A program made the position numbers and the translations under genes. Positions 30,566 through 46,296 of a stretch of DNA of 64,000 bases are shown piece after piece; positions within the stretch are counted from its first letter, which is position 1, and every line of letters starts with the position of its first letter. Origin of the DNA: an uncultured Gemmatimonadales bacterium (GTDB lineage: Bacteria > Gemmatimonadota > Gemmatimonadetes > Gemmatimonadales > GWC2-71-9); contig CAWGJN010000001.1 in the NCBI GenBank assembly GCA_963822925.1, positions 431,490 to 495,489 on the forward strand, read 5' to 3'. Below the pieces are notes generated by a model. It saw only the letters and a list, made by a program, of their open reading frames with translations, was not told where the DNA came from and searched no databases.

Positions 30566-31195
30566 ATGCCTCCGAGGGCGCTCCTGGCGAGCGCCCTTCT
30601 TTTTGCCCTCGCGTGCGCACTCGACGGATGGGCATGGCAGCACCTTCGCGTGGACGACGTCTACGGCAAGGACTGGGGACGCCTCTTCCGCATCGCCGGC
30701 TTCCTCCCCACCTGGATGCTGGGGTCCGTGGCGCTCATCCTCAGCGATCGCGGCACCGGTTCACCCGCGCCACGCCGCTTCTGGTGGCGTGGCATGCTGC
30801 TCACTGTGGCGCCGCTCGTGGCAGGGATCGTGTGTGAGCTCCTGAAGGTCCTTCTCCGGCGCGAACGACCCAACCTGCACGACGGCACCTATTTCTTCCG
30901 CGGCTTCAGCGACCACCCCTGGAGCACCTCGGCGATCGGGCTGCCGAGCAGTCATACGATGGTCGCGTTCGCCGGAGCCGGCATGGCGAGCTATCTGTTT
31001 CCGCGGACCTGGCCCGCGTGGATGCTGCTGGCGGGCGGCTGCGCCTTCACCCGAGTCGCGGCGCAGGCGCATTTCCTGAGTGATGTCATGCTGGCGGGAA
31101 TTGCGGGGTTGTTCGTGGCACGGCTGGTGTGGCTCTGGCCCGGACCGTCGGGCTCACATACGCCGAACCGTCCTCGTCGCGACGGAAGGGGCTAG
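30566..31195 (+). CDS. PAP2 family phosphatase
   Basis: KVLLRRERP, PSSHT and RVAAQAHFLSDV correspond to the three PAP2 motifs. Confidence 0.85.
   Translation: MPPRALLASALLFALACALDGWAWQHLRVDDVYGKDWGRLFRIAGFLPTWMLGSVALILSDRGTGSPAPRRFWWRGMLLTVAPLVAGIVCELLKVLLRRERPNLHDGTYFFRGFSDHPWSTSAIGLPSSHTMVAFAGAGMASYLFPRTWPAWMLLAGGCAFTRVAAQAHFLSDVMLAGIAGLFVARLVWLWPGPSGSHTPNRPRRDGRG
30941..31138 (+). repeat. Copy 1 of a ~198-bp direct repeat (the PAP2 3' end); partner at 43621..43818
   Basis: Gap-free alignment at an offset of 12680. I counted 29 mismatches, about 85% identity, including a 47-bp perfect block. Confidence 0.85.
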
Positions 31196-32470: not shown

Positions 32471-32869
32471 GTGTCATCTCACGATGCGCCAGATGAACCC
32501 ACGAGCGACTCAGGCCCGCTTGGCGAACGCGAGCTTGGCGTGGAGTACTGGCGGGCCCCCGAACTCTTCCTGCTTGATGCGGTCCTGACGCTGTTCGGGG
32601 TGATGGAGGCCGCGGGGACTCGGCCGCGAGTGTTCGTGTGCGACCTGCGAGCCGTGCCCATTCTCGATGCCCACGCGTGCCGTGTTATCTCCGTGCTGCT
32701 CGGACGCTGCCGGCGGTCGCGGATGGTGCTGATCCTGAGCGGCGTCGGGCCGACCGCCCTCCGCACCCTCGGAGCCGCCGGGACGCTCGACGAGTTGGGG
32801 CCCAGGAACGTGTTTGCGCATCTGAACGACGCGATGTCGCGCGCGCGCATACTGATGAACGATGACTAG
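32471..32869 (+). CDS. Stand-alone STAS domain protein
   Basis: YWRAPELFLLDAV...VFVCDLRAVPILDAHACRVISVLL...MVLILSGVGPTALRTLGAAG resembles SulP/SpoIIAA-type STAS. Its stop overlaps the convergent NuoB-like gene by 4 nt. Confidence 0.55.
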   Translation: MSSHDAPDEPTSDSGPLGERELGVEYWRAPELFLLDAVLTLFGVMEAAGTRPRVFVCDLRAVPILDAHACRVISVLLGRCRRSRMVLILSGVGPTALRTLGAAGTLDELGPRNVFAHLNDAMSRARILMNDD

Positions 32870-33669
32870 GTAGAGGCGTCGCCGGATCTCGCGCCAGGCG
32901 CACTCTGCCCGTCCAGTTGCCCCAGGAGCCGCAGCAGGCCATCCAGTACGGTCAGCGGATGCGGCGGGCACCCCGCGATCCACAGATCTACGGGCAGGTC
33001 GGCCGGTACTCCATTTCCCACCTCCGGGCTGTCCCGAAAGGGACCGCCATTGATCGCGCACGCGCCCACCGCGATCACCAGTTTTGGTTCCGGGATCGCG
33101 TCGTAGGTGCGATACACCGCGTCCCGCATGTTCCGGCTCACCGCCCCCGTGATCACCAGGCCGTCAGCGTGCCGGGGCGACGCGACGAACTGGATGCCGA
33201 ACCGCGCCATGTCGAAGACGACGTTGCCCAGGGCCACCAGTTCCGACTCGCATCCGTTGCAGCTTCCGGCCGCGACCGAGCGCAGACGCAGCGACCGGCC
33301 GAACAGCGTTCGGATGCGTTGCCCCAGCGCCTCGACGGCGGGGAGCTCCCCCGCCTCGCTGACCAGGCCGGAGCGCTCTCGTGCCGACAGGCGCGGATCG
33401 GCCGTGAAGGTGACGGCCCCATGGCGGCAAGCTGTTGCCTCCTCGGGCGCGAACAGGCACGCGCCAATGTCGAGCGATGCCCGGCCTTCCGGTGTCACGA
33501 CGAGCAGTGTGGAGGGCATAGCTGCCTGACACTCGTGGCAGGTCTCCAGGCATCGGGCGGCATCGAGCACCGGCCTGCCGCGAAAGCGCTCCGGGAACTC
33601 CGCGGCCCCGCCGGGAAATGCCGATGTCCGGGTGCCCTGCGCAAACCGGGTGCGGAGGAAGTCAAGCAT
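32866..33669 (-). CDS. NuoB/HycG/HyfI-like small subunit with a fused, degenerate ferredoxin-like N-terminal ~100 aa
   Basis: GSCNGCE, GACAINGG and GCPPHP (all four proximal-cluster Cys are present). The N-terminus has CLETCHEC...C-x10-C. Confidence 0.85.
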   Translation of the reverse strand: MLDFLRTRFAQGTRTSAFPGGAAEFPERFRGRPVLDAARCLETCHECQAAMPSTLLVVTPEGRASLDIGACLFAPEEATACRHGAVTFTADPRLSARERSGLVSEAGELPAVEALGQRIRTLFGRSLRLRSVAAGSCNGCESELVALGNVVFDMARFGIQFVASPRHADGLVITGAVSRNMRDAVYRTYDAIPEPKLVIAVGACAINGGPFRDSPEVGNGVPADLPVDLWIAGCPPHPLTVLDGLLRLLGQLDGQSAPGARSGDAST

Positions 33670-35180
33670 TAGAGGTCATGCCCCGCGTACGACAGGTTGA
33701 AGCTCTTGTTGCACAGCGGAAAGTCCGAGATCTGGTTTCCCGGCATCGCCGCTGCCAGCGCGCTCCAGTTGTGGAACGACGGATCCACCACCTTGTGCCG
33801 GCGGATCCCCCCGGCCTCGTCGGTGATCACCACGTGCGCGACTTCCCCCCGCCAGCCTTCTTCCAGCGCCACCACCAGTTCCGCGGGCCTGAGCGCGTCG
33901 CATGGCACCTGCGCGGCGCCCTTGGGCAGCGCGCCAACTTGCTCGATCACGAACTCGAGCGAGCGCTGCACCTCCAGCCAGCGCACCAGCGTTCGCGCCA
34001 GGACGTCGCCGGCCCACGCGGTGGACACCGGAATGTGGGCGAACCGGAACACCCCGTACGGGTGGTCGTGCCGCACATCCCGCGACACCTTGCACGCTCG
34101 CGCCGCCACACCGACCAGGCCGAGCTCGAGGCACTGCTGGGGCGTTACGGCACCGACGCCTTCGAGCCGCGCCTGCACCGAGGCGTTCTTGAGCAGCAGG
34201 TGTCCCACCGGGAGCAGCTCCTCGGCCAGCACCGCCAGGCGCGCGCGCATCTCGTCCGCCATCCCGGCCGGGATGTCGAAGAGCGCGCCCCCCGGTCGGA
34301 TGAGGCCCCGTCCGTAGCGGTTGCCCGAGAGGGTCATCAGGAGGTTCAGGCACTCACCCCGCATCCGCCCGAAGTACGCCGCGGCAGGCTGGTATGCGAT
34401 GTCTCCCGCAATCGCGCCGAGATCTCCGATGTGATTGGCCAGGCGCTCCAGCTCGAGGGCGATGCCGCGGATGGTCTGCGCCCTGGGCGTCTTGCGGCTC
34501 CGGGCCAGCGCCTCGATGGCACCGCAGGCGGCGCTCGCATGCGCGATAACGGTATCGCCGGCGATCGACTCCGCGATCAGGACGGCGTCCGGCCATCGGC
34601 GCGTTTCCAGCAGACGCTCGACTCCCCGATGTTGATAGCCGAGCATGATCTCGAGGAAGAGCACCTCCTCACCGTGTGCCTGGAAGCGGAAATGCCCCGG
34701 TTCGATGATGCCCGCGTGCACCGGTCCCACGGCGACCTCGTGAACCTCGCTGCCGTGGATCTGGAAGAATGGATACTCCTCCCGCTCCGCCGTCCCCCTC
34801 GACACCTGCCGACCCGCCTCGTCGGGTGGATGCCGGCGGACCGGCTTGAGCCACGGGTGCCCCTCCGGAACGACGCCGCACTGCTCCGCGATCTCCCGCT
34901 CGAACAGATGTGCCTCCGGGCACTCGGGAGTGAGCGCCGGATACGATCCATCCACCAACGTGGTCAACGCGCCGAGTTGACCGCGCTCATCCTGCGCCAG
35001 GATGGCCACCAGTTGGATCCGGTCCGCGAAGCCGGGCATGCCGAAGAACGCGACGAGCCGCCAGCCGTCCCGCACCGCCTGGCACACCGTGTCCCGGAAG
35101 CGTGGCACCGTCTCCATGGGGAGTGCCGCGAACGGGATGGTGCGGCGGTTGCGCAGGCCCAGTCCATCGAAGGCCGTCAT
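33669..35180 (-). CDS. NuoC+NuoD / HycE / HyfG-like 'large subunit' lacking all four [NiFe] cysteine ligands
   Basis: ATG 35180 overlaps the upstream stop (ATGA). EPGHFRF...YQHRGVERL are family motifs. SIAGDTVIAH replaces R-x-C-G-x-C-x3-H, and the protein ends NLSYAGHDL in place of DPCxxCxxR. Confidence 0.85.
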   Translation of the reverse strand: MTAFDGLGLRNRRTIPFAALPMETVPRFRDTVCQAVRDGWRLVAFFGMPGFADRIQLVAILAQDERGQLGALTTLVDGSYPALTPECPEAHLFEREIAEQCGVVPEGHPWLKPVRRHPPDEAGRQVSRGTAEREEYPFFQIHGSEVHEVAVGPVHAGIIEPGHFRFQAHGEEVLFLEIMLGYQHRGVERLLETRRWPDAVLIAESIAGDTVIAHASAACGAIEALARSRKTPRAQTIRGIALELERLANHIGDLGAIAGDIAYQPAAAYFGRMRGECLNLLMTLSGNRYGRGLIRPGGALFDIPAGMADEMRARLAVLAEELLPVGHLLLKNASVQARLEGVGAVTPQQCLELGLVGVAARACKVSRDVRHDHPYGVFRFAHIPVSTAWAGDVLARTLVRWLEVQRSLEFVIEQVGALPKGAAQVPCDALRPAELVVALEEGWRGEVAHVVITDEAGGIRRHKVVDPSFHNWSALAAAMPGNQISDFPLCNKSFNLSYAGHDL

Positions 35181-36601
35181 CGCGCCCCTCCCCCGAGACC
35201 CCAGGCTGCATCGGTGAGCACCTGCTGCAGTGCTGGCGGGATGTACACCCCGAGCAGCAGGACCAGCGCCAGCAGGACGATCGGGCCCGCGACCAGGAGG
35301 ACGCTCTCTCGTACCGGCGGCACCTCGGTTACCGGCGGGTCGTAGATCACCTCCAGGACCACCGCCGCCATGCCGACGAAGATCAGTGCGAGGAACGCGA
35401 GCATCGCGACGGCCACCCACGGGTGCCCCTGCCCGATGGCCGCGTTCAGGATGGTGAATTCGCTGAGGAACAGCCCGAATGGCGGTGACCCGGTCACGGC
35501 GAAGAGTCCGAGAAGCAGCAGCACCCCTGTCACCGGGGCGCGCCGGAGAATGCCGCGCGCGGCGCCCGCATGCGATGACCCGGTCGCGAGCACGACGTTC
35601 CCGACGGCGAGAAACATCAGCCCCTTGATCAGCCCGTTGTTGACGAGGTGAAGGACCGTCCCGTACCGGCCGACGCCGCCCAGCCCCAGGCCGAGCACCA
35701 ACAGGCCCATGTGTTCCACGCTCGAGTAGGCCAGCAATCGCTTCAGGTCCGACTGGCCGATCATGAAGGCCGCCGCCACCACCAGCGACATGACGCCGAA
35801 CGCCACGAGCAGGGGCTGCACGAACGCCGCCTGTCCGGCGGCCATCGTGATCTCGGTGATGCGCGCGAGCCCGAGGAACGCGCAGCTCGTCAGCGCGCCC
35901 GCCATGAGCCCCGCGACCAGGCTGGGCGCCTCACCATAGGTATCGGGCTTCCACGAGTGCAGCGGCGCCAGTCCCATCTTGGTTCCGTAACCGACCAGGA
36001 GGAAGATGAACGCCGTCTGCAGCAGCGCCGGGTGAAGGCTGCCACTTCCGGCGATCAGGTCCTCGAGCAGGAGAGGACGCCCTGAGGTCTGCGCGGCGGC
36101 CAGGAAGAACGTGCCGAGCAGCGCCAGCGCGATCCCCACGGACGACAGCAGCAGGTACTTCCACACCGCCTCCAGCGATCGGCGGTCGTGCCGATGGTAC
36201 ACGAGGGGCGCGAGCGCGAGAGTGGTTGTCTCCATGCCCACCCACAGGAGCGCCATGTGGTGGCTCACGGCCACCAAGGTGGCCGCGGCCAGGAATGCCA
36301 GCAGGCAGCTGACGAAGACCCGCCCTCCGCGCGGGGGCTCGGTTTGCAGGAACCCCGCCGCGTACACCGCGATCACGAAGAAGAGCAGGCTCACCAGCGA
36401 GACCACGAGGAGGCCCAGCGCGTCGATCGCGAGCCATCCGCCGACTTCCGGCGCGACCGGACCGCGCCAGAGATATCCCGCCGCGCCCAGGTGCAGGACC
36501 GAGGTCACGACCAGCAGGCCGAGACGCACGCTCAGCGGCCGCACCAGGTAGGCAGCCACCGCAGCGGCGATCGGGACCAGCACCATCGGCAGGAGGATCA
36601 T
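35177..36601 (-). CDS. HyfF/NuoM-N-like antiporter-type subunit
   Basis: 474-aa polytopic protein starting MILLPMVLVPIAAAV. TGATG overlap with the upstream gene. The longer track ORF is a shadow extension. Confidence 0.8.
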   Translation of the reverse strand: MILLPMVLVPIAAAVAAYLVRPLSVRLGLLVVTSVLHLGAAGYLWRGPVAPEVGGWLAIDALGLLVVSLVSLLFFVIAVYAAGFLQTEPPRGGRVFVSCLLAFLAAATLVAVSHHMALLWVGMETTTLALAPLVYHRHDRRSLEAVWKYLLLSSVGIALALLGTFFLAAAQTSGRPLLLEDLIAGSGSLHPALLQTAFIFLLVGYGTKMGLAPLHSWKPDTYGEAPSLVAGLMAGALTSCAFLGLARITEITMAAGQAAFVQPLLVAFGVMSLVVAAAFMIGQSDLKRLLAYSSVEHMGLLVLGLGLGGVGRYGTVLHLVNNGLIKGLMFLAVGNVVLATGSSHAGAARGILRRAPVTGVLLLLGLFAVTGSPPFGLFLSEFTILNAAIGQGHPWVAVAMLAFLALIFVGMAAVVLEVIYDPPVTEVPPVRESVLLVAGPIVLLALVLLLGVYIPPALQQVLTDAAWGLGGGAR

Positions 36602-37239
36602 CAATCCTTCAACTCGGTCAATCGGGTCGAGTCCAGCGAGTCGAATGCGCGATTGATGTGGAAGACCACGATGCCCATGATGAAGATGCCGACGAAGATG
36701 TCCAGCAGGACGCCCAGCTCGACGAGGAAGGGCACGCGCTCCGCCTGGCTCAGCCCGAAGACGTAGATCCCGTTCTCGAGGATCAGGTAGCCGACCACCT
36801 GCGTCAGCGCCTTGTTCCGCGTCGTCAGCACGATGAGGCCGATCATCACCGTCGCCAGTGCGACCGGGATGAGGAGGCCGCTCTCCGATTCCGGCAGGGG
36901 AATGCGCTGGGCAATGCCGAACGACAGGGCCACCACGATCGTCCCCAGCAGGAGCGACCCGGAGAATCCGATCAGGGGTTCGATCTCCCGGCGTACGGCC
37001 GCCTCGCGGATGGCCCAGGAGAGGAAGGTCGGCAGGAGGATCGCCTTCACCAGCAGCGTGCCGACCGCGAGCCCGATGATGTGCAGCGACCATCCCGGGT
37101 GCAGCGCAACGGGCAGCGCTGCCAGCAGCGCTCCCTGAATCGCGGTGGCGCGAATGGCCGAGCTCAACCGCGTGGTCCCCAACACCCAGAAATTGGTGAG
37201 GACCACGCCGAGGAGGAGCAGCTCATGCAGGTCTGACAT
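36601..37239 (-). CDS. HyfE-like membrane subunit
   Basis: 212 aa. The TRNKALTQVVGYLILENGIYVFG motif is typical of hydrogenase-4 component E. Confidence 0.75.
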   Translation of the reverse strand: MSDLHELLLLGVVLTNFWVLGTTRLSSAIRATAIQGALLAALPVALHPGWSLHIIGLAVGTLLVKAILLPTFLSWAIREAAVRREIEPLIGFSGSLLLGTIVVALSFGIAQRIPLPESESGLLIPVALATVMIGLIVLTTRNKALTQVVGYLILENGIYVFGLSQAERVPFLVELGVLLDIFVGIFIMGIVVFHINRAFDSLDSTRLTELKD

Positions 37240-37242
37240 GAT

Positions 37243-38154
37243 TCACCGCAGCAGGAGGATCACGCCGACGACGGCCAGGGCACCGGCCGCCACGAGGAAC
37301 TGGGGAAGCCGGTTCATCCGCAGTCGCGCCATGCTTGCTTCGACGATGCCGACGCCAACCGCCACTGCCACGAGTCCGCCGAGCAGGATCAGCGCCGCCA
37401 GCGGGGGCGACACCAGTGCGCGCGGCACCACGAGGCTCACCACCAGCGCGCCGAAGAGCGCGAGCTTGAGGGCGCTGCCGAACAGGATCATGGCGAGCTC
37501 CGGCCCGCTGTGATCGAGCACGATCACCTCGTGGATCATCGTGAGTTCGAGATGGGTCCCGGGATCGTCTACCGGCACCCGGGACGTCTCCGCGAGCGCC
37601 AGCATGAACAGGGCGACGGCCGTGAGGGCGAGCGATGGCAGGGTCAGGACCCAGACCGCCGCGAGCCGCTCTCCCAGCATGCCGGCAAGCGACAGTTCAC
37701 CGGTGGCGAGGACCAGCACCGTGAAGCAGAGGAACAGCACCGGCTCGGCGAAGGCGGAGACCGTGACTTCCCGGCTCGCCCCCATCCCCTCGAAGCTCGA
37801 CCCCGTATCCAGACCGGCGAGCACGAGCGCGAAGCGGCCCAGTGCCAGTAATCCGGCGAACGCAACGAGATCTCCGGAGAAGCTGAGCAGTGCCGAATGA
37901 CCGTCCAGCGGGAGGAGCGCAGCGGCGACGAGCACCGTCGCGAGGACCACGATCGGCCCGATGCGGAACACCGCCGTCGTAGTGCCGCTGTAGACGACAT
38001 TCTTCCGGAGCAGCTTCGCCAGGTCCCGGTACAGCTGCAGCACGGGTGCTCCCCGGCGCCCCGTCAGAAACGCCCGGGTGCGCGTCGCGATACCGGGCAA
38101 GGCGGGAGCCACGGCCAGGACCATCACCAGCGTCACGAAAGGCCAGGGCGTCAT
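37243..38154 (-). CDS. HycD/HyfC (NuoH)-like membrane subunit
   Basis: RRGAPVLQLYRDLAKLLRK and AETSRVPVDDPGTHLELTMIHEVIVLDHSG. ATGA overlap upstream. Confidence 0.85.
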   Translation of the reverse strand: MTPWPFVTLVMVLAVAPALPGIATRTRAFLTGRRGAPVLQLYRDLAKLLRKNVVYSGTTTAVFRIGPIVVLATVLVAAALLPLDGHSALLSFSGDLVAFAGLLALGRFALVLAGLDTGSSFEGMGASREVTVSAFAEPVLFLCFTVLVLATGELSLAGMLGERLAAVWVLTLPSLALTAVALFMLALAETSRVPVDDPGTHLELTMIHEVIVLDHSGPELAMILFGSALKLALFGALVVSLVVPRALVSPPLAALILLGGLVAVAVGVGIVEASMARLRMNRLPQFLVAAGALAVVGVILLLR

Positions 38155-40124
38155 GCTCCGCCCTGCCACTTCATCAGGTGATAAAGCAGAAGAAGCAGCG
38201 TGGAGACGACGGCCAGGAGGTACCATCGGATGCGCGCGCCCGGCCATGCTCGCAGGTGCCGGCTCCAGTCATCCAGTGCCCGCCACGCCGGCAGTACCAC
38301 CTGGTCCTGAACCAGGTCCACCGGGTGAGAGTGAAAGCTCGTCGGCTTTCGGGCCTCCCACACTGCGGCGAGCGGTCCGAATGCGGACAGCAGCGGCGCC
38401 GCAAAGGACGACGCGGTGTACTGCATTCTCGGGGTCAGCCCCGGCCCCGCGCACGCCCACGTCGCGCCGGCGCGGACCTCCCCCGCTCGGCCCAGGTACC
38501 CGCGGAAGAGCAGCACCGCGCCCCCAACCAGGATGAGTGCCGCGGCCACCGTGGAAACGCCCGTCGCCCCGGCGGCCCACGTCTGCACCCCGGTGCTTCC
38601 GTCCATCATTCGTGCCACGCTTGCGGCGACCAGCCGGACCGGCGCCAGCACCAGCGTCGGCACGAGGCCGATGACTGCGCAGAAGCCCGCGAGGACCAGC
38701 GCCGGCACCACCATGCCCGCCGTCGGTTCGCTCGCAGCGAGGCCATCGCCGAGGGGCGCGCGCGGCAGCCCGAGGAAGAGCACGCCATCGAGCTTGCTGA
38801 AGCACGCCAGCGCGAGCCCGCCGATCAGCGCCAGTCCCGCCGCGCCGAACACCACGAACCGCATCGCCTCCGTTGACTCCGCGGCCGTGAAGAGCGCGCC
38901 GAACACGACCCACTCGCTCACGAAGCCGTTGAGCGGCGGCAATCCCACGATGGCCACCGACCCGATGCCGAATGCCACCGCCGTCAGCGGCATCCGGCGC
39001 GCGAGACCGCCCAGCCGGTCGATCTCCCGCGTGCCCGTCGCCCGCACCACCGCCCCCGCGCCCAGGAACAGCAGACTCTTGAACAACGCATGGTTCAGCG
39101 TGTGCAGCAGTGCCCCCATGAACCCCAGCAGCGCCACCACCGGATGGCCATAGACCATCCCCAGGACCCCGACGCCCATGCCCAGCAGGATGATTCCGAT
39201 GTTCTCGACGCTGTGGTAGGCAAGCAGCCGCTTGAGATCGTGCTGGCCCAGCGCCCACAGCACGCCCAGCACACCCGACACCAGTCCCAGCCCGAACAGG
39301 GTCCACCCGAACCAGGCCGGCGGGGAGCCCAGGAGGTTGAGCACCCGGAGCAGCCCGTAGATCCCCATCTTGAGCATGACGCCGGATAGCACCGCGGAGA
39401 CGTGCGACGGGGCCGCGGCGTGCGCGCCCGGCAACCAGAAGTGCAGCGGGACGGCGCCGGCCTTGATGCCGAATCCCACGAGCGCAAAGACCAGCGCGAG
39501 CGTGCGCCCCGTGCTCGCGGCCTGGCTTCCGGCGGCGAGGTCGGCGAAGCTGCGGCCTTCGGCATGCGCGCTCAGGGCGGCAAACATCCCGAAGAGCGCG
39601 AGGAGGCTCGTATGGGTGAGCACGATGTAGACCAGGCCCGCGCGACGAACCTCGCCCCGCTCACTCTCGAACACGACGAGCAGGTACGCGCTCACCGCCA
39701 TCACTTCCCAGGAGGCGAGGAACGGCATCATCGCCTGCGACGTGACCACCCCGACCAGGGCCACCAGGAGCAGGGCGAACAGGCCGTGCACCACGTGGAC
39801 ACTGCGATGCGCGCGCTCCGGCGCCAGGTACGCCGTCCCGAACACTCCGGCGGCGGCCCCGACAGGGAGAATGACCAACACGAACCAGGCCGAGAGCGGA
39901 TCGAGACCAAAGCTCCACGGACCACCGGGCAGTGACCCCGCAAGTGCGGCGGTCGGCACCGGTGCGCCACCCAGCACACGGATCGCTGGAATTACTCCCA
40001 GGACGCACCCGGCGAGGAGCAACACGGCGTAGAGTCGGTCGGCTGCGGTGCTCCATCGCCGAAAGAGCACCGCGCAGACGGCGCCTGCCAGAATGCAGCC
40101 CGCGCCCCAGATGAGCCCGCTCAC
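38151..40124 (-). CDS. HyfB/HycC (NuoL)-like antiporter-type subunit, copy 2
   Basis: 657 aa. WLPGAHAAAPSHVSAVLSG core and a C-terminal TWACAGPGLTPRMQYTASSFAAPL extension. GTGA overlap upstream. Confidence 0.85.
   Translation of the reverse strand: MSGLIWGAGCILAGAVCAVLFRRWSTAADRLYAVLLLAGCVLGVIPAIRVLGGAPVPTAALAGSLPGGPWSFGLDPLSAWFVLVILPVGAAAGVFGTAYLAPERAHRSVHVVHGLFALLLVALVGVVTSQAMMPFLASWEVMAVSAYLLVVFESERGEVRRAGLVYIVLTHTSLLALFGMFAALSAHAEGRSFADLAAGSQAASTGRTLALVFALVGFGIKAGAVPLHFWLPGAHAAAPSHVSAVLSGVMLKMGIYGLLRVLNLLGSPPAWFGWTLFGLGLVSGVLGVLWALGQHDLKRLLAYHSVENIGIILLGMGVGVLGMVYGHPVVALLGFMGALLHTLNHALFKSLLFLGAGAVVRATGTREIDRLGGLARRMPLTAVAFGIGSVAIVGLPPLNGFVSEWVVFGALFTAAESTEAMRFVVFGAAGLALIGGLALACFSKLDGVLFLGLPRAPLGDGLAASEPTAGMVVPALVLAGFCAVIGLVPTLVLAPVRLVAASVARMMDGSTGVQTWAAGATGVSTVAAALILVGGAVLLFRGYLGRAGEVRAGATWACAGPGLTPRMQYTASSFAAPLLSAFGPLAAVWEARKPTSFHSHPVDLVQDQVVLPAWRALDDWSRHLRAWPGARIRWYLLAVVSTLLLLLYHLMKWQGGA
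38905..39455. repeat. Near-identical segment shared with 40872..41422 (offset 1967)
   Basis: 213 bp with 1 mismatch (38905..39117), a diverged ~110 bp, then ~149 bp with 1 mismatch (39231..39379). Read directly. Confidence 0.85.
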
Positions 40125-42100
40125 GGCTGCCGCACGATCGCGGCGAAGAGCGCGCCCAGGAGAAGCACCACCGTGAGCACCATGTACTGGAGGTACCGCG
40201 TGATCCGCCCCTGCTGCAGCGGGCGCAGCACCTCGGTGAGGGCGCGGACTCGCTGCCAGACGGGAGCGGCCACCCTGGCCAGGACCAGGTCGCCCGGGTC
40301 GGTGCTGAGCGAGGTCGCATCACGCTTGACCCGAGGTGCCGCGACGCTGCCGAACGCGCGCAGCACCGGCGCGCTGAACGACGAGGCGGTGTACTGCATC
40401 CGGCCGTCCGGACGACCATAGGCGCATCCCCACGTCATCCCGATGACCGGCTCTTGCAATCGGCCGGCGCGCAGACGCAGATACCACAGCAGCACCAGCA
40501 GCATTGCCAGCAGTGCACCGAGGGTGCCAAGGAAAGGGAGGGCGCTCGTAACAGCAGACCCGGCCTCGGTGATTCCCTCGGTGCCCCCCGCTACAATCGT
40601 CCCGACGACGATAGCAGCGGGCCGCACGGCAATCGCAGGGAAGGCGCCGAGCCCGACGCACAATACCGCCAGCGCAAGCATGGGAACCACGAGGCCCGGT
40701 TCATCCCGCACCTCGGCCTCCGGTGCACGCGGCCGGCCCAGGAACACCCCGCCAGTCACCCGGCTGAAGCACGCCAGGGCAAGCCCGCCGATCAGGCCGA
40801 GGCCGGCAATGCCGAGAGCCACGAAGGCCGGCAGCATCCGGTTCTGCACCCCGCGCAAGAGACCTTGCGCTACGACCCACTCACTCACGAAGCCGTTGAG
40901 CGGCGGCAATCCCACGATGGCCACCGACCCGATGCCGAATGCCACCGCCGTCAGCGGCATCCGGCGCGCGAGACCGCCCAGCCGGTCGATCTCCCGCGTG
41001 CCCGTCGCCCGCACCACCGCCCCCGCGCCCAGGAACAGCAGACTCTTGAACAACGCATGGTTCAGCGTGTGCAGCAGTGCCCCCGTGAACCCGAGCAGCG
41101 CCACCACTGGGTGGTCGTAGGCCACTCCCACGACCCCCAGCCCCATGGCCAGCACGATGATCCCGATGTTCTCGACGCTGCTGTAGGCGAGAACACGCTT
41201 GAGATCGTGCTGGCCCAGCGCCCAGAGCACGCCCAGCACACCCGACACCAGTCCCAGCCCGAACAGGGTCCACCCGAACCAGGCCGGCGGGGAGCCCAGG
41301 AGGTTGAGCACCCGGAGCAGCCCGTAGATCCCCATCTTGAGCATGATCCCGGACAGCACCGCGGACACGTGAGAGGGAGCCGCCGCGTGCGCGCCCGGCA
41401 GCCAGAAATGCATGGGCACCACACCCGCCTTCATCCCGAACCCGACCAGTGCGAGCAGTAGTACGAGCCCACCTCCCCACGGAATCGCGGGTGCCGCCGC
41501 GGCCAATGCGTCGAAGGTGAGGTCGGGAGTGCTGCGCCCCCAAACCAGGAACATGGCGATCAGCGCGAGTGTTCCGGTATGCGTCAGCACGAGGTAGATC
41601 AGGCCGGCGCGACGGACCGCTTCGCGGTCCCCATCGAACATGATGAGGAAGTACGCGCTCAGCGCCATGATCTCCCATGCCAGCAGGAAGAGCACGGCGG
41701 CATGCGCCACGACGACCATCACCATCGCGGCGAGCAGAAGCGCAAACACCGCATGCACCCACGCGACCTGCCGGTGCGCGCGCTCCTGCGCGAGGTAGCT
41801 CGTGCCGTAGCTGGTGGCTGCCGCCCCGGCGACGCCGAGCACGACCAGGAACCACCCCGCGAGGGGATCGACCAGAATGGCCCACGGCCCCCCGGGCACG
41901 CGCGGCTCAACCGACAGTGCGATGGGCGATCCACCAAGCAGGACCGCCCCGCCCGCCCCGGCGCAGGCGAGCAGGCCCGGAAGTACGAGCATCTCGTGGA
42001 TGAGATCAGCGAGCCGGGGAGCCCGCGCGAACACCAGCGACGCGACGCCGCCCAGGAGTACCAGCCCGACACCACTGATCAGGAGGGCGGCCGGATTCAT
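40121..42100 (-). CDS. HyfB/HycC (NuoL)-like antiporter-type subunit, copy 1
   Basis: 659 aa with the same core and a TWGCAYGRPDGRMQYTASSFSAPV extension. ATGA overlap with the upstream HTH-EIIA gene. Confidence 0.85.
   Translation of the reverse strand: MNPAALLISGVGLVLLGGVASLVFARAPRLADLIHEMLVLPGLLACAGAGGAVLLGGSPIALSVEPRVPGGPWAILVDPLAGWFLVVLGVAGAAATSYGTSYLAQERAHRQVAWVHAVFALLLAAMVMVVVAHAAVLFLLAWEIMALSAYFLIMFDGDREAVRRAGLIYLVLTHTGTLALIAMFLVWGRSTPDLTFDALAAAAPAIPWGGGLVLLLALVGFGMKAGVVPMHFWLPGAHAAAPSHVSAVLSGIMLKMGIYGLLRVLNLLGSPPAWFGWTLFGLGLVSGVLGVLWALGQHDLKRVLAYSSVENIGIIVLAMGLGVVGVAYDHPVVALLGFTGALLHTLNHALFKSLLFLGAGAVVRATGTREIDRLGGLARRMPLTAVAFGIGSVAIVGLPPLNGFVSEWVVAQGLLRGVQNRMLPAFVALGIAGLGLIGGLALACFSRVTGGVFLGRPRAPEAEVRDEPGLVVPMLALAVLCVGLGAFPAIAVRPAAIVVGTIVAGGTEGITEAGSAVTSALPFLGTLGALLAMLLVLLWYLRLRAGRLQEPVIGMTWGCAYGRPDGRMQYTASSFSAPVLRAFGSVAAPRVKRDATSLSTDPGDLVLARVAAPVWQRVRALTEVLRPLQQGRITRYLQYMVLTVVLLLGALFAAIVRQP
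40872..41422. repeat. Partner of the 38905..39455 repeat
   Basis: See the partner feature. Confidence 0.85.
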
Positions 42101-42804
42101 TGCCCGGGGCGCTTGTTGACCGCGAACGACCCGGTCGTCTGCACCTCGAGGTCGCGGATGCGCTCCAGCAGTTGTTCCGTCGAGGCACGATCCTTCAGCA
42201 ACCGCCGCAATTCCGGGTTGCGCAGCGCGAACGCGAGCTGGGCGAGAATCCGGAGGTGCGAGGGAACCGTGGCGCTCACCACGAGGAAGACCGCGTGCAC
42301 CGGCAGGCCATCCATCGCGCCGAATTCGACCGGCCGGCGCAACAGGCAGAGGGTGACGAACGGCTGATCCACGTGAAGCAGGATTGGATTGCGCACGTGC
42401 GGGATGGCGATGCCATCGCCGATGGCGGTCGACCCCATCGCCTCGCGCGCTTCGAGCACGGCCAGCAGGAAGTCACGGTCCACCTCGGCCGACAAGGGCA
42501 GCCGCGTCACGATGGCGGCCAGTACCGTGTTCTTGTCGTCCCCCTCCACATCCCGATGGATGCCGCCCGTCTCGAGCAATCGCGAGAGCGGCGGCACCTC
42601 CTCCGGAGACCGGCGGGCCTCCTCCAACAGACCCCGGGATGCGGGAACCCCGTGCTCCACCGCCCACTGCCACACCTCGATCGCATTCAGGTGCAGGCGT
42701 TCGTTCAGGCGGTGCACCGGGAGGTCGCGCTCCTTGATCCACCGGCGGAGCGTGGACTCGCCCACGTTGAGGTAGGCTGCGGCCTGTCGAATGGTGATCT
42801 GCAT
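42097..42804 (-). CDS. HTH (excisionase/MerR-like) plus PTS EIIA type-2 (PtsN-like) fusion protein
   Basis: N-terminal ITIRQAAAYLNVGESTLRRWIKERDLPVHR. EIIA core GSTAIGDGIAIPHVR with the phosphorylatable His. Confidence 0.75.
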   Translation of the reverse strand: MQITIRQAAAYLNVGESTLRRWIKERDLPVHRLNERLHLNAIEVWQWAVEHGVPASRGLLEEARRSPEEVPPLSRLLETGGIHRDVEGDDKNTVLAAIVTRLPLSAEVDRDFLLAVLEAREAMGSTAIGDGIAIPHVRNPILLHVDQPFVTLCLLRRPVEFGAMDGLPVHAVFLVVSATVPSHLRILAQLAFALRNPELRRLLKDRASTEQLLERIRDLEVQTTGSFAVNKRPGQ

Positions 42805-42808
42805 GAGA

Positions 42809-43522
42809 TTATCGGCCTGTTGCCCCGGCGTCGCCGAGCAGTACGTGCTCGGTGTCGCGCACCAGGGTGACGACGGCAGCCGCCGCGGTCGCGCTCCGCA
42901 CGCCCTCCAGGAACCCGGGATGGCGACAGAGGCTCGCCACTCGCGCGAGCAGGATCAGGTGGCGACGGGGATCGCGCGCCAGCAGCAGGAACAGGAGATC
43001 GGTCGGGATGGCGCCAAACGCGTCGAAGCCCACCGGCGCCGGGAGCCGGCCGATCGCGAGCAGGTCACCGCGGCGCAACGCGCGACCCTCCCACCGTGCC
43101 GTATGGAGCAGCGCGGCGCCACACTCCGTGGCCGTGCTCGCCAGCTCCTCCCGCTCCCACACCCGCCGCACGACCTCGTCGACGTCGACCGGCTCGGGAA
43201 ACGTGACCTTCCGGATCAGGCTCTCGATCATCGCACGCCGTGACCCGGCCTGGATCGGGAGAAGCGCGTTCTCCGGCGCGAGCGCCTCACTCAAGGAGCA
43301 CCCGGACGTCCGCCATTCGGCTTCCATCGCCCGCAGGTGAGGCGGGCTGATGCGCTCCATCCGGAGGTCCATCCAGTAGTCGACGACGGCTCGCCGGAAC
43401 CGCCAGTGCCCGCCGACCTTGAAACCCGGGAGTTCGCCCCGCCCGAGCAGCCGGTACACTGTGCGCTCCGAGAGCTGGAGATGCTCCGCCAGCTGCTTCA
43501 GCGTCAGGACGTCCGCCTGCAT
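42809..43522 (-). CDS. HTH (excisionase/MerR-like) plus degenerate EIIA-like fusion protein
   Basis: N-terminal LTLKQLAEHLQLSERTVYRLLGRGELPGFKVGGHWRF. The C-terminal half parallels the neighbouring protein, with GAALLHTAR in place of GIAIPH. Confidence 0.65.
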   Translation of the reverse strand: MQADVLTLKQLAEHLQLSERTVYRLLGRGELPGFKVGGHWRFRRAVVDYWMDLRMERISPPHLRAMEAEWRTSGCSLSEALAPENALLPIQAGSRRAMIESLIRKVTFPEPVDVDEVVRRVWEREELASTATECGAALLHTARWEGRALRRGDLLAIGRLPAPVGFDAFGAIPTDLLFLLLARDPRRHLILLARVASLCRHPGFLEGVRSATAAAAVVTLVRDTEHVLLGDAGATGR

Positions 43523-43533
43523 GCATTGACCGT

Positions 43534-43551
43534 GTTGAACGCGCGTTCAAC
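43534..43551. promoter_or_regulatory. Perfect 18-bp palindrome GTTGAACGCGCGTTCAAC, 12 nt upstream of the operon's first start codon
   Basis: Read directly. It is flanked by CATTGAC (43524, 43566) and TTGACTGTCAA (43568..43578; TTGACA on the operon strand). Confidence 0.45.
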
Positions 43552-43610
43552 GTATCGGGACATGACATTGACTGTCAACCGCTGCCACCGGTGACGGGCG
43601 CTCGCCCGGA

Positions 43611-43863
43611 GGCCGTAGGCCTGCCGAGCAGCCATACCATGGTGGCCTTCGCCGGAGCGGGCATGGGAAGCTTTCTCTTTCCGCGGACCTGGCCCGCATG
43701 GATGTCGCTCGCGGCAGGGTGTGCGTTCACCCGCGGCGCGGCGCAGGCGCATTTCCTGAGTGATGTCATGCTGGCGGGAATTGGAGGGCTCTTCGTAGCA
43801 CGGCTGGCATGGCACTGGGGCGCTTGGCTATCCCGCCGGCCGACGGCCAAAGAGGATTATTGA
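43611..43863 (+). pseudogene. 3' fragment of a second PAP2 phosphatase gene (motifs 2 and 3 only)
   Basis: GLPSSHTMVAFAGAGMGSFLFPRTWPAWMSLAAGCAFTRGAAQAHFLSDVMLAGIGGLFVARL is about 88% identical to residues of the 30566..31195 protein. The N-terminal two thirds are absent. Confidence 0.8.
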
Positions 43864-43888
43864 CAGAACAACTATACAACTATATAGT
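43860..43888 (+). promoter_or_regulatory. Sigma-70-type promoter TTGACA-N17-TATAGT in an AT-rich island
   Basis: TTGACA 43860..43865, a 17-nt spacer, TATAGT 43883..43888. The 10-bp palindrome ACTATATAGT (43878..43887) overlaps the -10. Confidence 0.5.
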
Positions 43889-43895
43889 AATGCAT

Positions 43896-45272: not shown

Positions 45273-45273
45273 C

Positions 45274-46293: not shown

Positions 46294-46296
46294 GCC

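What the first reader, a model, noticed from the sequence alone, without database searches (positions are those of the whole stretch)
32866..43522. Nine-gene translationally coupled Hyf-like membrane complex with no hydrogenase chemistry (Ehr-type)
All nine minus-strand genes are joined by ATGA/GTGA, TGATG or TAATG overlaps or by 3-4-nt gaps, so they form one operon.

Gene order:
- HTH-EIIA
- HTH-EIIA
- HyfB/HycC-like subunit (copy 1)
- HyfB/HycC-like subunit (copy 2); both copies have the MQYTASSF C-terminal extension
- HycD/NuoH-like subunit
- HyfE-like subunit
- HyfF/NuoM-N-like subunit
- NuoCD/HycE-like subunit
- NuoB/HycG-like subunit

This is the hydrogenase-4 membrane-arm layout with three antiporter-like subunits. 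However, the window contains no FdhF/HyfA electron-input module, no hyp maturation genes and no maturation endopeptidase. The catalytic subunit also has no Ni-Fe ligands (separate finding).

The operon fits the class defined only bioinformatically as energy-converting-hydrogenase-related (Ehr) complexes. As far as I know, the electron donor, the acceptor and the coupling ion of that class are unknown.
Basis: partly seen in the sequence, partly recalled or inferred. Interest (0 to 1): 0.85.

Follow-up and report, generated by a model that had tools for sequence, protein, structure and literature searches.

The report
Hydrogenase-derived Ehr membrane complex operon
This is a nine-gene operon from a Gemmatimonadota bacterium encoding an Ehr complex, a known but never characterised hydrogenase- and complex-I-like membrane machine that has lost its nickel-iron site; here it has also lost part of its iron-sulfur wire and comes with two PTS-type regulator genes.

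Summary
Nine minus-strand genes (43522..32866) are joined by 1- or 4-nt overlaps or 3-4-nt gaps: two HTH_17-EIIA(Ntr-like) genes, two HyfB-like, HycD-like, HyfE-like, HyfF-like, a 503-aa NuoC+HycE-like large subunit and a small subunit. The large subunit has A/T/S/G in place of the four NiFe cysteines. It also lacks the complex-I quinone His/Tyr. It falls in a large Cys-less clade, far from NuoCD.

The Ehr reading is supported. The same gene order occurs in Geobacteraceae, where Ehr was named. No paper or PDB entry I could search characterises Ehr.

Additions:
- The last gene is a fusion of a HyfH/NuoI-like and a HycG/NuoB-like domain.
- An HTH-EIIA gene with an intact PtsN-type Arg/His/His triad accompanies ehr in about 45 of 56 loci across many phyla, often behind TGTCY-N5-TGTCY repeats.
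- The Fe-S ligands are evolutionarily labile. This lineage has lost one ferredoxin-type cluster (35/35). Opitutales have lost the NuoB-type cluster (100/120). A third clade keeps a single cluster. The large-subunit motifs, checked in all three, stay conserved; the membrane-subunit charges were checked family-wide only for EhrB and EhrC.

Verdict: a new member of a known, functionally unknown kind. Interest is moderate.

The parts
43534..43551 (-). Perfect 18-bp palindrome GTTGAACGCGCGTTCAAC, 12 nt upstream of the R1 ATG. A TTGACA box lies at 43573-43578 and TGTCA/TGTCC half-sites are nearby. This is a candidate promoter/operator of the operon.
   Evidence: Sequence read; palindrome search. Function is inferred, not shown.
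42809..43522 (-). ehrR1: 237-aa HTH_17 + PTS_EIIA_2 protein. It is a divergent paralogue; the G-x-G before the active His has degenerated to ECGAALLH.
   Evidence: Pfam HTH_17 4.4e-15 and PTS_EIIA_2 5.2e-14. R1-type genes are also found at ehr loci L003, L004 and L072.
42097..42804 (-). ehrR2: 235-aa HTH_17 + EIIA(Ntr-like) protein with an intact Arg120/His136/His183 triad. It is the regulator type that accompanies ehr across phyla.
   Evidence: Pfam. Best PDB hits are PtsN structures (3urr 3.2e-11). The triad is 97-100% conserved in 40 homologues taken from ehr loci. ATGA overlap with ehrA1.
40121..42100 (-). ehrA1: 659-aa HyfB/NuoL-like antiporter-like subunit with the MQYTASSF motif at residue 568.
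   Evidence: NCBIfam hydrogenase 4 subunit B 2.4e-166. TM5 Glu143, TM7 Lys224, TM8 Lys255 and TM12 Glu407 are conserved.
38151..40124 (-). ehrA2: 657-aa second HyfB-like subunit with a GTG start. Its central ~500 nt are 92-100% identical to ehrA1, which indicates a gene-conversion tract.
37243..38154 (-). ehrB: 303-aa HycD/HyfC/NuoH-like membrane subunit.
   Evidence: Pfam NADHdh 2.7e-33. HyfC 103 bits against NuoH 30 bits. Conserved charged residues are shared with NuoH and HycD: R128, E137, D196, E203, R277.
36601..37239 (-). ehrC: 212-aa HyfE-like membrane subunit.
   Evidence: NCBIfam hydrogenase 4 membrane subunit 7.8e-27. E155, E174 and D180 are shared with HyfE.
35177..36601 (-). ehrD: 474-aa HyfF/NuoN-like antiporter-like subunit.
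   Evidence: NCBIfam hydrogenase 4 subunit F 2.5e-91. It has Glu124, Lys208 and Glu381; the TM8 position is Ser, where HyfF has Asn.
33669..35180 (-). ehrL: 503-aa NuoC + HycE/NuoD-like large subunit. It has no NiFe cysteines and no quinone His/Tyr, and it ends at ...GHDL, the position aligned to the HycE C-terminal ...CTDR motif (by recall, the maturation cleavage site).
32866..33669 (-). ehrS: 267-aa fusion. Residues 1-105 form a HyfH/NuoI-like domain that keeps one Cys quartet (C40, C44, C47, C81) and has lost the other (M51, A74, E77). Residues ~120-255 form a HycG/NuoB-like domain with all four cluster cysteines (C137, C140, C204, C234).

Best explanation
SHOWN. This is an operon for an Ehr (Ech/energy-converting-hydrogenase-related) complex from a Gemmatimonadota bacterium. 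It is a Hyf-derived, complex-I-like membrane assembly made of 2x EhrA, EhrB, EhrC, EhrD, EhrL and EhrS. The operon begins with two HTH_17-EIIA(Ntr-type) genes. The NiFe site is gone. The canonical quinone ligands are absent. One of the two ferredoxin-type [4Fe-4S] sites of EhrS is gone. The NuoB-type cluster site, the beta1-beta2 loop of EhrL, the NuoH-type charged residues and the Glu/Lys residues of all three antiporter-like subunits are intact.

INFERRED, most likely mechanism. The conserved job of the complex is ion (H+ and/or Na+/K+) translocation by the antiporter-like arm, gated by the EhrL/EhrS/EhrB junction. In this lineage it is not driven by a conventional electron flow from a cytoplasmic donor along a three-cluster wire to a catalytic pocket. 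The retained NuoB-type cluster would serve a structural or redox-sensing role, for example equilibrating with the menaquinone pool. The polar pocket that replaces the NiFe site (Glu160, Glu204, Asp209, Thr210, His214, Ser497) would act as a proton- or cation-handling site.

Expression is probably set by the HTH-EIIA proteins, which would bind operator sites upstream of the operon. They would respond to phosphorylation of the conserved EIIA histidine by a nitrogen-type PTS relay, tying the complex to carbon/nitrogen or ion-homeostasis status.

My confidence that this is an Ehr complex is about 0.9. The confidence given below is for the mechanistic reading.
For: Identity.

Transport machinery intact.

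The wire is not conserved. In EhrS, 49 of 68 species-level homologues keep all 12 Cys. All 35 metagenome relatives at 59% identity or more to the window protein lack the second ferredoxin-type quartet, about 11 of them have also degraded the first, and 34 of 35 keep the NuoB-type Cys. Conversely, 100 of 120 Opitutales-type EhrS, including cultured Opitutus terrae, lack the NuoB-type Cys (the fourth is always Trp) but keep both ferredoxin quartets. Seventeen contigs keep only one ferredoxin quartet, yet have the D-L-S order and every EhrL motif. Two Omnitrophota loci show gaps at all of the aligned ferredoxin-quartet positions. So no continuous wire is common to the family, while the EhrL motifs stay conserved in all three variants; the membrane-subunit charges were shown family-wide only for EhrB and EhrC.

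No conserved electron-input partner appears in the flanks of 80 loci, and none is in this window.

Regulator: an R2-type gene lies next to ehrA in roughly 45 of 56 loci with enough upstream sequence, across Planctomycetota, Verrucomicrobiota, Desulfuromonadota, Spirochaetota, Actinomycetota, Bacteroidota and Fibrobacterota. The PtsN-type triad is conserved. The direct repeat TGTCY-N5-TGTCY occurs in 12 of 40 upstream regions against 0.15% of random windows. An 18-bp palindrome lies before R1 here.
Against: - Most family members (72%) keep all three cluster sites across phyla. That argues the clusters do something in most lineages, and a redox-driven pump remains plausible for them and perhaps for this one.
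- I could not establish which ferredoxin-type cluster lies next to the NuoB-type cluster. If the retained one is the medial cluster, a shortened two-cluster wire would still work here.
- Geobacter Ehr subunits are more abundant on formate, which hints at a redox link.
- No driving force for a non-redox pump is identified.
- The window's upstream region has a palindrome rather than the TGTCY repeats seen in other phyla.
- PTS-Ntr genes (ptsP, ptsO) were not found in the window, and the rest of the genome could not be searched.
- The HTH-EIIA protein could be a physical subunit rather than a transcription factor.
Confidence: 0.4

Rival explanations
1. It is a conventional redox-driven ion pump. 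A low-potential cytoplasmic donor (ferredoxin, or a detachable formate dehydrogenase or other module encoded elsewhere) feeds the EhrS clusters. Electrons leave at the EhrL/EhrS/EhrB junction to menaquinone or an unknown acceptor, and this drives H+/Na+ export, as in Fd-dependent NDH-1, Fpo, Mbh or Mbs.
For: 49 of 68 EhrS keep all 12 Cys. The NuoB-type Cys are kept in 34 of 35 close relatives of the window protein. The coupling residues and beta1-beta2 loop are conserved. Ehr is up-regulated on formate in Geobacter. An FDH-Ehr partnership has been proposed in Margulisbacteria.
Against: There are no NiFe ligands and no equivalents of Nqo4 His38/Tyr87. One ferredoxin-type cluster is lost in the whole lineage and the second in about a third of it. 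Other clades lack the NuoB-type cluster. No conserved input module lies near 80 loci. Some Ehr hosts are reported to lack quinone synthesis.
Confidence: 0.3
2. The EhrL pocket carries out a non-redox reaction, or binds a substrate or ion (for example a hydration/dehydration or cation-binding step). That step is coupled to the antiporter-like arm, by analogy with CO2 hydration by NDH-1MS/CupA or by DAB complexes.
For: Nearly invariant polar residues replace the NiFe ligands: E160, E204, G208, D209, S497, Y498, G500 and D502. SulP/STAS transporter genes sit beside ehr in a few loci, and a STAS gene abuts ehrS here. EIIA(Ntr)-type regulators are classically linked to ion homeostasis (my own knowledge).
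Against: No recognisable catalytic metal motif is present. The SulP/STAS association is seen in only about 5 of 80 loci. There is no direct evidence for any substrate.
Confidence: 0.12
3. It is a decaying, non-functional remnant of a hydrogenase-4 operon. This view has been expressed for Geobacter KN400 in one paper.
For: The catalytic site and part of the Fe-S wire are lost. A 2026 paper treats Ehr as non-functional because it cannot oxidise H2.
Against: Nine intact ORFs with translational coupling. More than 100 distinct relatives at 72-96% identity all have full length. Replacement motifs are conserved over many phyla. Transport residues are intact. All Ehr subunits are detected as proteins in Geobacter.
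Confidence: 0.03
4. It is simply this organism's respiratory complex I, or a true [NiFe] hydrogenase with sequencing errors at the CxxC motifs.
For: Pfam and NCBIfam give NuoD/NuoB/NuoH-type hits.
Against: All NCBIfam Nuo hits are far below their cut-offs. Hyf/Hyc scores exceed Nuo scores for every subunit, and NuoA/J/K/E/F/G are absent. The tree places EhrL far from NuoCD. The Cys-less motifs are shared by 97 of 103 representatives. No hyp or hycI genes are in the window.
Confidence: 0.02

Closest known systems
Ehr complex of Geobacter sulfurreducens (GSU0739-0745: ehrA-1, ehrA-2, ehrB, ehrC, ehrD, ehrL, ehrS; Coppi 2005) and the Ehr class of Marreiros et al. 2013
   Same: Same subunit set and order, including the duplicated EhrA. 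The large subunit lacks the NiFe cysteines. EhrL is about 50-52% identical to Geobacteraceae homologues, and those loci also carry an HTH-EIIA gene. Function is unknown in both.
   Different: The Gemmatimonadota version has two HTH-EIIA genes. It has lost one ferredoxin-type Cys quartet in EhrS, whereas the Geobacteraceae EhrS for which the ligands were printed keep the NuoB-type quartet and at least one ferredoxin-type quartet. Its EhrL lacks the Cys at 499 found in 43% of the family.
E. coli hydrogenase-4 / formate hydrogenlyase-2 (HyfA-J) and FHL-1 (HycB-G, PDB 7Z0S)
   Same: Closest characterised homologues for every subunit: HyfB 304 bits, HyfF 238, HycE 157, HyfI 114, HyfC 103, HyfE 55. 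The membrane-arm logic is the same, and the HycG-type CxxC...C...C cluster motif is present.
   Different: There are no NiFe ligands, and EhrL ends at the position aligned to the HycE C-terminal ...CTDR motif. HyfA/HycB, HyfD, HyfJ and Hyp/HycI are absent (FdhF was not searched for). HyfH and HyfI are fused. The regulator is an HTH-EIIA protein rather than HyfR/FhlA.
Pyrococcus furiosus MBS/Mbx (PDB 6U8Y) and MBH (6CFW)
   Same: These are hydrogenase-derived, complex-I-like complexes with Mrp-type modules. MBS is a precedent for a relative that no longer makes H2. MbhJ and MbhL are among the best PDB matches.
   Different: Similarity is much lower (MbsL 2.9e-21). The membrane subunit set differs. 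MBS has an identified substrate and an intact three-cluster wire (literature, one search list). Ehr has neither.
Respiratory complex I / NDH-1 (Nuo, Nqo, Ndh)
   Same: It shares the L-shaped module logic, with NuoB-, NuoCD-, NuoH-, NuoI- and NuoL/M/N-like parts, the N2-type cluster site and the conserved antiporter Glu/Lys residues.
   Different: Nqo4 His38 and Tyr87 correspond to Ile159 and Gly208. There are no NuoA/J/K/E/F/G. It is a distant outgroup in the tree.
Mrp-type multisubunit cation/proton antiporter
   Same: It has MrpA/MrpD-like antiporter subunits with the same charged residues. If the redox-independent reading is right, Ehr would work like Mrp.
   Different: Ehr has a NuoH-like subunit and a two-protein peripheral arm with Fe-S sites. 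MrpB/E/F/G were not looked for individually and no hit to them appeared.
PtsN (EIIA-Ntr) of the nitrogen-related PTS
   Same: The EIIA_2 domain of R2 aligns best to PtsN structures. It keeps the Arg/His/His active-site spacing (16 and 47 residues) and the GxGIAIPH motif.
   Different: PtsN is a stand-alone protein of about 160 aa. R1 and R2 carry an N-terminal excisionase/MerR-like HTH_17 domain and are embedded in the ehr operon. Scores are below the NCBIfam PtsN cut-off (61 against 139 bits).

Membership tests
Ehr (Ech/energy-converting-hydrogenase-related) complex | The large subunit is homologous to group-4 [NiFe]-hydrogenase large subunits / NuoD. | tested here: met
   Pfam Complex1_49kDa 1.8e-37 plus Complex1_30kDa. 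Best PDB hit HycE 7.5e-45.
Ehr (Ech/energy-converting-hydrogenase-related) complex | All four NiFe-ligating cysteines (N-terminal RxCGxCxxxH, C-terminal DPCxxC) are absent. | tested here: met
   A207, T210, S497 and G500 align to HycE C241, C244, C531 and C534.
Ehr (Ech/energy-converting-hydrogenase-related) complex | NuoB/HycG-like small subunit, NuoH/HycD-like subunit, HyfE-like subunit and antiporter-like subunits are encoded together. | tested here: met
Ehr (Ech/energy-converting-hydrogenase-related) complex | Gene order matches the prototype cluster (ehrA, (ehrA), ehrB, ehrC, ehrD, ehrL, ehrS). | tested here: met
   Geobacteraceae loci L013, L016, L022, L030 and L037 and most of the 80 loci show A-(A)-B-C-D-L-S.
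Ehr (Ech/energy-converting-hydrogenase-related) complex | Phylogenetic placement is with Cys-less relatives, apart from NuoD and from bona fide hydrogenases. | tested here: met
   Neighbour-joining tree of 106 sequences. The tree is rough (BLOSUM distances, no bootstrap).
Ehr (Ech/energy-converting-hydrogenase-related) complex | No dedicated hydrogenase maturation genes (hyp, endopeptidase) and no NuoEFG, HyfA or FdhF module. | tested here: inconclusive
   HyfA/HycB, NuoEFG, Hyp and HycI/H are absent from the 64-kb window (FdhF was not a query) and no conserved partner appears in the flanks of 80 loci. The rest of this genome could not be searched.
Group 4 [NiFe] hydrogenase (Hyf/Hyc, 4a/4f) | CxxC pairs that ligate Ni-Fe. 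| tested here: not met
Group 4 [NiFe] hydrogenase (Hyf/Hyc, 4a/4f) | C-terminal extension removed by a maturation endopeptidase, with hyp and hycI genes nearby. | tested here: not met
   EhrL ends at ...GHDL, aligned to HycE ...CTDR; that this is the maturation cleavage site is my recall. No Hyp or HycI homologue is in the window.
Respiratory complex I (NuoA-N) | Quinone head-group ligands His38 and Tyr87 (T. thermophilus Nqo4 numbering). | tested here: not met
   They align to Ile159 and Gly208 (alignment).
Respiratory complex I (NuoA-N) | The full subunit set, including NuoA, NuoJ, NuoK and (for the NADH type) NuoE/F/G. | tested here: not met
   No hits in the window. All NCBIfam Nuo hits are far below their cut-offs.
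Mrp cation/proton antiporter | MrpA-G subunit set without a peripheral Fe-S arm. | tested here: not met
   Only the MrpA/D-like fold is shared. EhrL and EhrS form a peripheral arm.
PtsN / EIIA-Ntr (for R1 and R2) | EIIA_2 fold with the phosphorylatable His and the Arg/His partners. | tested here: met
   R120, H136 and H183 are 97-100% conserved. Best PDB hits are PtsN structures.
PtsN / EIIA-Ntr (for R1 and R2) | Phosphorylation by NPr/EI-Ntr and a stand-alone architecture. | not testable with these tools
   The architecture differs, since an N-terminal HTH_17 domain is present. Phosphotransfer needs biochemistry, and PTS-Ntr genes elsewhere in the genome could not be searched.

The most novel reading that the evidence does not exclude
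Ehr complexes as a family may be complex-I-like scaffolds that have shed redox catalysis. On this reading they work as ion-translocating (Mrp-like, or gated by redox or phosphorylation state) machines under control of a nitrogen-PTS-type HTH-EIIA regulator. Different lineages have discarded different Fe-S clusters, and this Gemmatimonadota operon is one stage in that process: NiFe site gone, one ferredoxin-type cluster (possibly the medial one) gone, NuoB-type cluster kept.
Probability: 0.25. Interest if true: 0.8.

Novelty: new member of a known kind. Interest (0 to 1): 0.5.

Why it matters
Ehr complexes are widespread. A pattern-limited scan of species-representative genomes gave at least 596 matches across many phyla. 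Published reports place them in about half of Nitrospirales, in Geobacter and in M. tuberculosis. They sit between [NiFe] hydrogenases and complex I in evolution. Their substrate, coupling ion and physiological role have been unknown since 2005/2013.

This window adds a Gemmatimonadota member. The comparison it prompted yields three testable handles:
- a dedicated EIIA(Ntr)-type regulator with a candidate operator;
- natural variants lacking each Fe-S cluster in turn, including the cultured Opitutus terrae, which lacks the NuoB-type cluster;
- a conserved polar pocket in place of the NiFe site.

If the electron wire is truly dispensable, Ehr would show how a redox enzyme was converted into a different kind of membrane machine.

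Tried and rejected
- I searched for a conserved electron-input partner by clustering all flanking ORFs of 80 loci. Nothing recurred except generic sensor kinases.
- STAS/SulP as a partner: only weak hits in about 5 loci.
- I tried to decide which ferredoxin-type cluster (N6a-like or N6b-like) is lost. Papers give the order N6a-N6b-N2 but not the ligand assignment, and the structure tools return no coordinates. It is left open. By analogy with PsaC (my own knowledge), and because the remaining quartet is decaying in a third of the lineage, I suspect the medial cluster was the one lost.
- Reverse association (are R2-type genes found away from ehr?): the protein search lists only close Gemmatimonadota relatives, so this did not complete.
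- The original Ehr papers (Coppi 2005, Marreiros 2013) are not held. I cannot exclude that they already mention the EIIA gene or the Fe-S ligand losses.
- I looked for a new Cys-based site in EhrL. No Cys column is general; Cys at 168, 285, 490 and 499 co-occur in about a quarter of the family, and of these only Cys490 is present here.
- Structure prediction was not run. It would not have given distances, and sequence matches to solved structures were already unambiguous.
- The ENA contig carrying the identical R2 protein is 97.8% identical to the window, with 33 gap openings (indels) in the alignment. It ends inside ehrA2, so it gave no extra context.

Full report
1. OBSERVATION

The region holds nine minus-strand ORFs exactly as described. 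I chose starts by junction geometry and by homology.

| Gene | Coordinates | Length | Junction to next gene |
|---|---|---|---|
| R1 | 43522-42809 | 237 aa | 4-nt gap |
| R2 | 42804-42097 | 235 aa | ATGA |
| A1 | 42100-40121 | 659 aa | GTGA |
| A2 | 40124-38151 | 657 aa | ATGA |
| B | 38154-37243 | 303 aa | 3-nt gap |
| C | 37239-36601 | 212 aa | TGATG |
| D | 36601-35177 | 474 aa | ATGA |
| L | 35180-33669 | 503 aa | TAATG |
| S | 33669-32866 | 267 aa | (end) |

No terminator-like site and only one weak promoter-like match lie inside the operon. Upstream is a divergent RND efflux operon (OEP/HlyD/AcrB, 43809-48852). Downstream is a convergent STAS-domain gene whose stop overlaps the ehrS stop by 4 nt, followed by DUF983, TetR and PAP2 genes. 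The unit is therefore exactly these nine genes.

Composition (about 67% GC) and the nearest homologues place the organism in Gemmatimonadota.

2. WHAT THE PROTEINS ARE

- R1 and R2 are HTH_17 + PTS_EIIA_2.
- A1 and A2 match hydrogenase-4 subunit B (E=2e-166 and 5e-157).
- B is NuoH/HycD-like.
- C is HyfE-like.
- D is HyfF-like.
- L is NuoC + NuoD/HycE-like.
- S is NuoB/HycG-like.

One correction: S is a fusion. Its first ~105 residues match HyfH/HycF/NuoI.

Against E. coli proteins, every subunit scores higher with Hyf/Hyc than with Nuo:

| Subunit | Hyf/Hyc score (bits) | Nuo score (bits) |
|---|---|---|
| A1 | HyfB 304 | NuoL 72 |
| D | HyfF 238 | NuoN 81 |
| L | HycE 157 | NuoCD 78 |
| S | HyfI 114 | NuoB 77 |
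| B | HyfC 103 | NuoH 30 |

No HyfA/HycB, NuoA/J/K/I, NuoE/F/G, HypA-F, HycI or HycH homologue exists in the 64-kb window.

3. THE LARGE SUBUNIT

The best solved relative is E. coli HycE (7z0s_E, 7.5e-45), followed by Nqo4 (1e-33), MbhL (2e-33) and MbsL (3e-21). No closer structure exists in the 2026 PDB copy.

- The four NiFe cysteines align to A207, T210, S497 and G500.
- The protein ends at ...GHDL, aligned to the HycE ...CTDR motif, which by recall is the maturation cleavage site.
- The complex-I quinone ligands His38 and Tyr87 align to Ile159 and Gly208.

This is not an error or a recent decay. Among 103 full-length 50%-identity cluster representatives, 97 lack the cysteines. They share the replacement motifs E-S-I-[A/S/C]-G-D-[T/S]-x-x-x-H and [N/D]-L-S-Y-[C/S/A]-G-x-D-L at the C-terminus. 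Only 6 are CCCC. In 34 diverse members, H155, E160, E204, G208, D209, S497, Y498 and G500 are at least 90% conserved and D502/L503 are invariant.

A neighbour-joining tree puts the window protein inside the Cys-less clade. A small CCCC clade lies adjacent, HycE/HyfG lie outside and NuoCD is distant.

4. THE MEMBRANE ARM IS INTACT

- A1 and A2 keep TM5 Glu, TM7 Lys, TM8 Lys and TM12 Glu, the HyfB pattern.
- D keeps Glu, Lys and Glu, with Ser where HyfF has Asn.
- EhrB keeps the charged residues shared by NuoH, HycD and HyfC (R128, E137, D196, E203, R277 and others).
- EhrC keeps the HyfE acidic residues.
- MQYTASSF lies in a ~90-residue stretch between the last two predicted transmembrane segments of EhrA, at a NuoL-lateral-helix-like position. 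It is an Ehr-family signature, not an E. coli HyfB/HycC one.

5. COMPARISON WITH OTHER GENOMES

The best 80 come from Gemmatimonadota, Planctomycetota, Verrucomicrobiota, Omnitrophota, Desulfuromonadota (Geobacter, Geomonas, Pelobacter), Spirochaetota, Acidobacteriota, Actinomycetota, Bacteroidota, Fibrobacterota, Myxococcota and others.

The order A-(A)-B-C-D-L-S is near-universal. EhrA is single in 41 of 55 scorable loci and double in 14. Geobacteraceae, where the ehrA-1/A-2/B/C/D/L/S cluster was named, have the same layout. This is the direct basis for filing the window under Ehr.

No conserved neighbour that could be an electron-input module was found.

6. THE HTH-EIIA GENES BELONG TO THE SYSTEM

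An R2-type gene lies directly upstream of ehrA, between two ehrA copies, or divergently with a second ehrA. This holds in roughly 45 of 56 loci with enough upstream sequence, across at least eight phyla. R1-type paralogues occur at ehr loci of Gemmatimonadota and one Actinomycetota genome, sometimes after ehrS.

In 40 homologues, Arg120, His136 and His183 are 97-100% conserved. Their spacing of 16 and 47 residues matches, by recall, that of the E. coli PtsN active site (Arg57/His73/His120). The best solved relatives are PtsN proteins. The HTH is also conserved.

Upstream of these genes in other phyla, a direct repeat TGTCY-N5-TGTCY (for example ATGTCCAAAAATGTCCAAA) occurs in 12 of 40 regions. 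It occurs in 0.15% of random 150-nt windows. Here the R1 start is preceded by a perfect 18-bp palindrome (43534-43551), a TTGACA box and TGTCA/TGTCC half-sites.

I infer a phosphorylation-controlled, autoregulated transcription factor. A role as a physical subunit is not excluded. I found no mention of this association in the searchable literature. The two founding papers are not held.

7. THE Fe-S LIGANDS ARE LABILE

The family consensus of EhrS has 12 cysteines: two ferredoxin-type quartets and the NuoB-type quartet. In window numbering they are:
- quartet A: 40, 44, 47 + 81
- quartet B: 51 + 71, 74, 77
- NuoB-type: 137, 140, 204, 234

49 of 68 species-level homologues have all 12. Four departures from this pattern were found.

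| Lineage | Sample | Quartet A | Quartet B | NuoB-type |
|---|---|---|---|---|
| Window lineage | 35 metagenome relatives at ≥59% identity | degraded in about 11 of 35 | lost in 35 of 35 | kept in 34 of 35 |
| Opitutales-type (incl. cultured Opitutus terrae, SEEW) | 120 relatives of one EhrS | kept | kept | lost in 100 of 120 |
| Third clade | 17 contigs | lost | kept | lost |
| Omnitrophota | 2 loci | gapped | gapped / non-Cys | kept |

- The window protein has M51, A74 and E77, so quartet B is lost. In the relatives, position 77 is almost always Glu.
- In the Opitutales type the NuoB-type positions read NEEW, DACW, SEEW, NDEW and so on, and the fourth is always Trp. The rest of the protein and the EhrL motifs are intact.
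- The third clade still has the D-L-S order and every EhrL motif.

No continuous surface-to-pocket wire is therefore common to the family. The EhrL pocket motifs remain conserved in all three variants. The membrane-subunit charges were shown family-wide only for EhrB and EhrC, and the regulator across the genome sample.

Which quartet is next to the NuoB-type cluster could not be determined. Quartet A is eroding in a third of this lineage. In PsaC, the equivalent of quartet B is the inner cluster (my own knowledge). Both points make me suspect that the medial cluster was the one lost.

8. MECHANISM

Shown:
- an intact, conserved, translationally coupled Ehr operon
- no NiFe or quinone ligands
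- a truncated Fe-S set
- intact transport residues
- a dedicated EIIA-type regulator

Inferred (confidence about 0.4): the complex translocates ions through its antiporter-like arm without a conventional three-cluster electron flow. The NuoB-type cluster is structural or senses redox state. The polar EhrL pocket handles protons or cations. Expression depends on a PTS-Ntr-like phosphorelay acting on R1 and R2.

The main rival (about 0.3) is a conventional redox-driven pump with ferredoxin, or a detachable dehydrogenase, as donor and menaquinone or an unknown molecule as acceptor. It is favoured by the 72% of members that keep all clusters and by up-regulation on formate in Geobacter. A non-redox reaction in the pocket (about 0.12), a dead relic (about 0.03), and complex I or a true hydrogenase (about 0.02) follow.

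9. WHAT IS KNOWN, AND NOVELTY

Papers from 2019 to 2025 all state that Ehr complexes lack the NiFe ligands and that their function is unknown. A 2026 paper goes further and treats the Geobacter Ehr as non-functional. The 2020 proteomics study shows only that the proteins are made.

The lineage-specific Fe-S truncation, the family-wide lability of the clusters and the conserved HTH-EIIA regulator are, as far as I could check, not described. They are what gives the finding its moderate interest.

10. SIDE OBSERVATIONS

- The central ~500 nt of ehrA1 and ehrA2 are 92-100% identical, against 40-65% in the flanks. This indicates gene conversion.
- A 201-bp in-frame copy (85.6% identity) of the 3' end of the PAP2 gene (30938-31138) lies at 43618-43818. 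It brackets a 12.5-kb block made of TetR, DUF983, STAS and ehr. The flanks are not shared with other Gemmatimonadota ehr loci. This is compatible with insertion or rearrangement of the block.
- A HupE/UreJ_2 family gene lies at 26305-26907.
- There are no tRNA genes in the window.

Noticed in passing
window 38905-39430 and 40872-41400: The tandem ehrA paralogues are 57% identical in protein overall. Their central ~500 nt (the TM7-TM12 core) are 92-100% identical at DNA level, against 40-65% in the flanks. This suggests a recent gene-conversion tract, or possibly assembly collapse. A 97.8%-identical ENA contig ends inside ehrA2.
   Followed up: partly
window 43618-43818 vs 30938-31138: A 201-bp direct repeat, ungapped and 85.6% identical. 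An in-frame copy of the last ~67 codons of the PAP2 gene sits between the R1 promoter region and the OEP gene. It brackets a 12.5-kb block (TetR, DUF983, STAS, ehr operon). No integrase or tRNA is present. Other Gemmatimonadota ehr loci have different flanks.
   Followed up: partly
window 43534-43551 (and 43573-43578): A perfect 18-bp palindrome GTTGAACGCGCGTTCAAC lies 12 nt upstream of the R1 start, with a TTGACA box and TGTCA/TGTCC half-sites nearby. It is a candidate operator.
   Followed up: partly
loci L007, L012, L014, L015, L017, L021, L026, L027, L028, L038, L041, L044 (upstream of the HTH-EIIA gene): The direct repeat TGTCY-N5-TGTCY (for example ATGTCCAAAAATGTCCAAA) is present in 12 of 40 upstream regions from several phyla, against 0.15% of random 150-nt windows. 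It is a candidate conserved binding site of the HTH-EIIA protein.
   Followed up: partly
L062:11515-12381, L047, L009, L034, L072; proteins P0391-P0510 (including Opitutus terrae P0406): These EhrS proteins are otherwise well conserved but lack the NuoB-type cluster cysteines (for example S/E/E/W) while keeping both ferredoxin-type quartets. This holds for 100 of 120 Opitutales-type sequences.
   Followed up: yes
loci L148-L165: A further Ehr clade (D-L-S order, all EhrL motifs present) whose EhrS keeps only one ferredoxin-type Cys quartet. It has lost both the other quartet and the NuoB-type cysteines (pattern V-LC CCCF DCDN).
   Followed up: partly
window 32471-32869 (+); loci L029, L046, L064, L069, L079: A stand-alone STAS-domain gene converges on ehrS, with the stops overlapping by 4 nt. 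In a few Verrucomicrobiota and Omnitrophota loci a SulP-type transporter with a STAS domain sits next to ehr.
   Followed up: partly
window 26305-26907 (-): A HupE/UreJ_2 family membrane protein (Pfam 7e-47), a family associated with Ni/Co uptake for hydrogenases and ureases. It lies about 6 kb from an operon that has no NiFe site.
   Followed up: no
window 3863-5212 (+): A sigma-54-dependent AAA+ activator, which was the only window hit for E. coli FhlA. It is about 28 kb from the operon and is probably unrelated.
   Followed up: no
L037:13236-20563 and L059:2193-9974: Some genomes carry a second, more divergent Ehr-like cluster (A-B-C-D-L-S) immediately next to the first.
   Followed up: no
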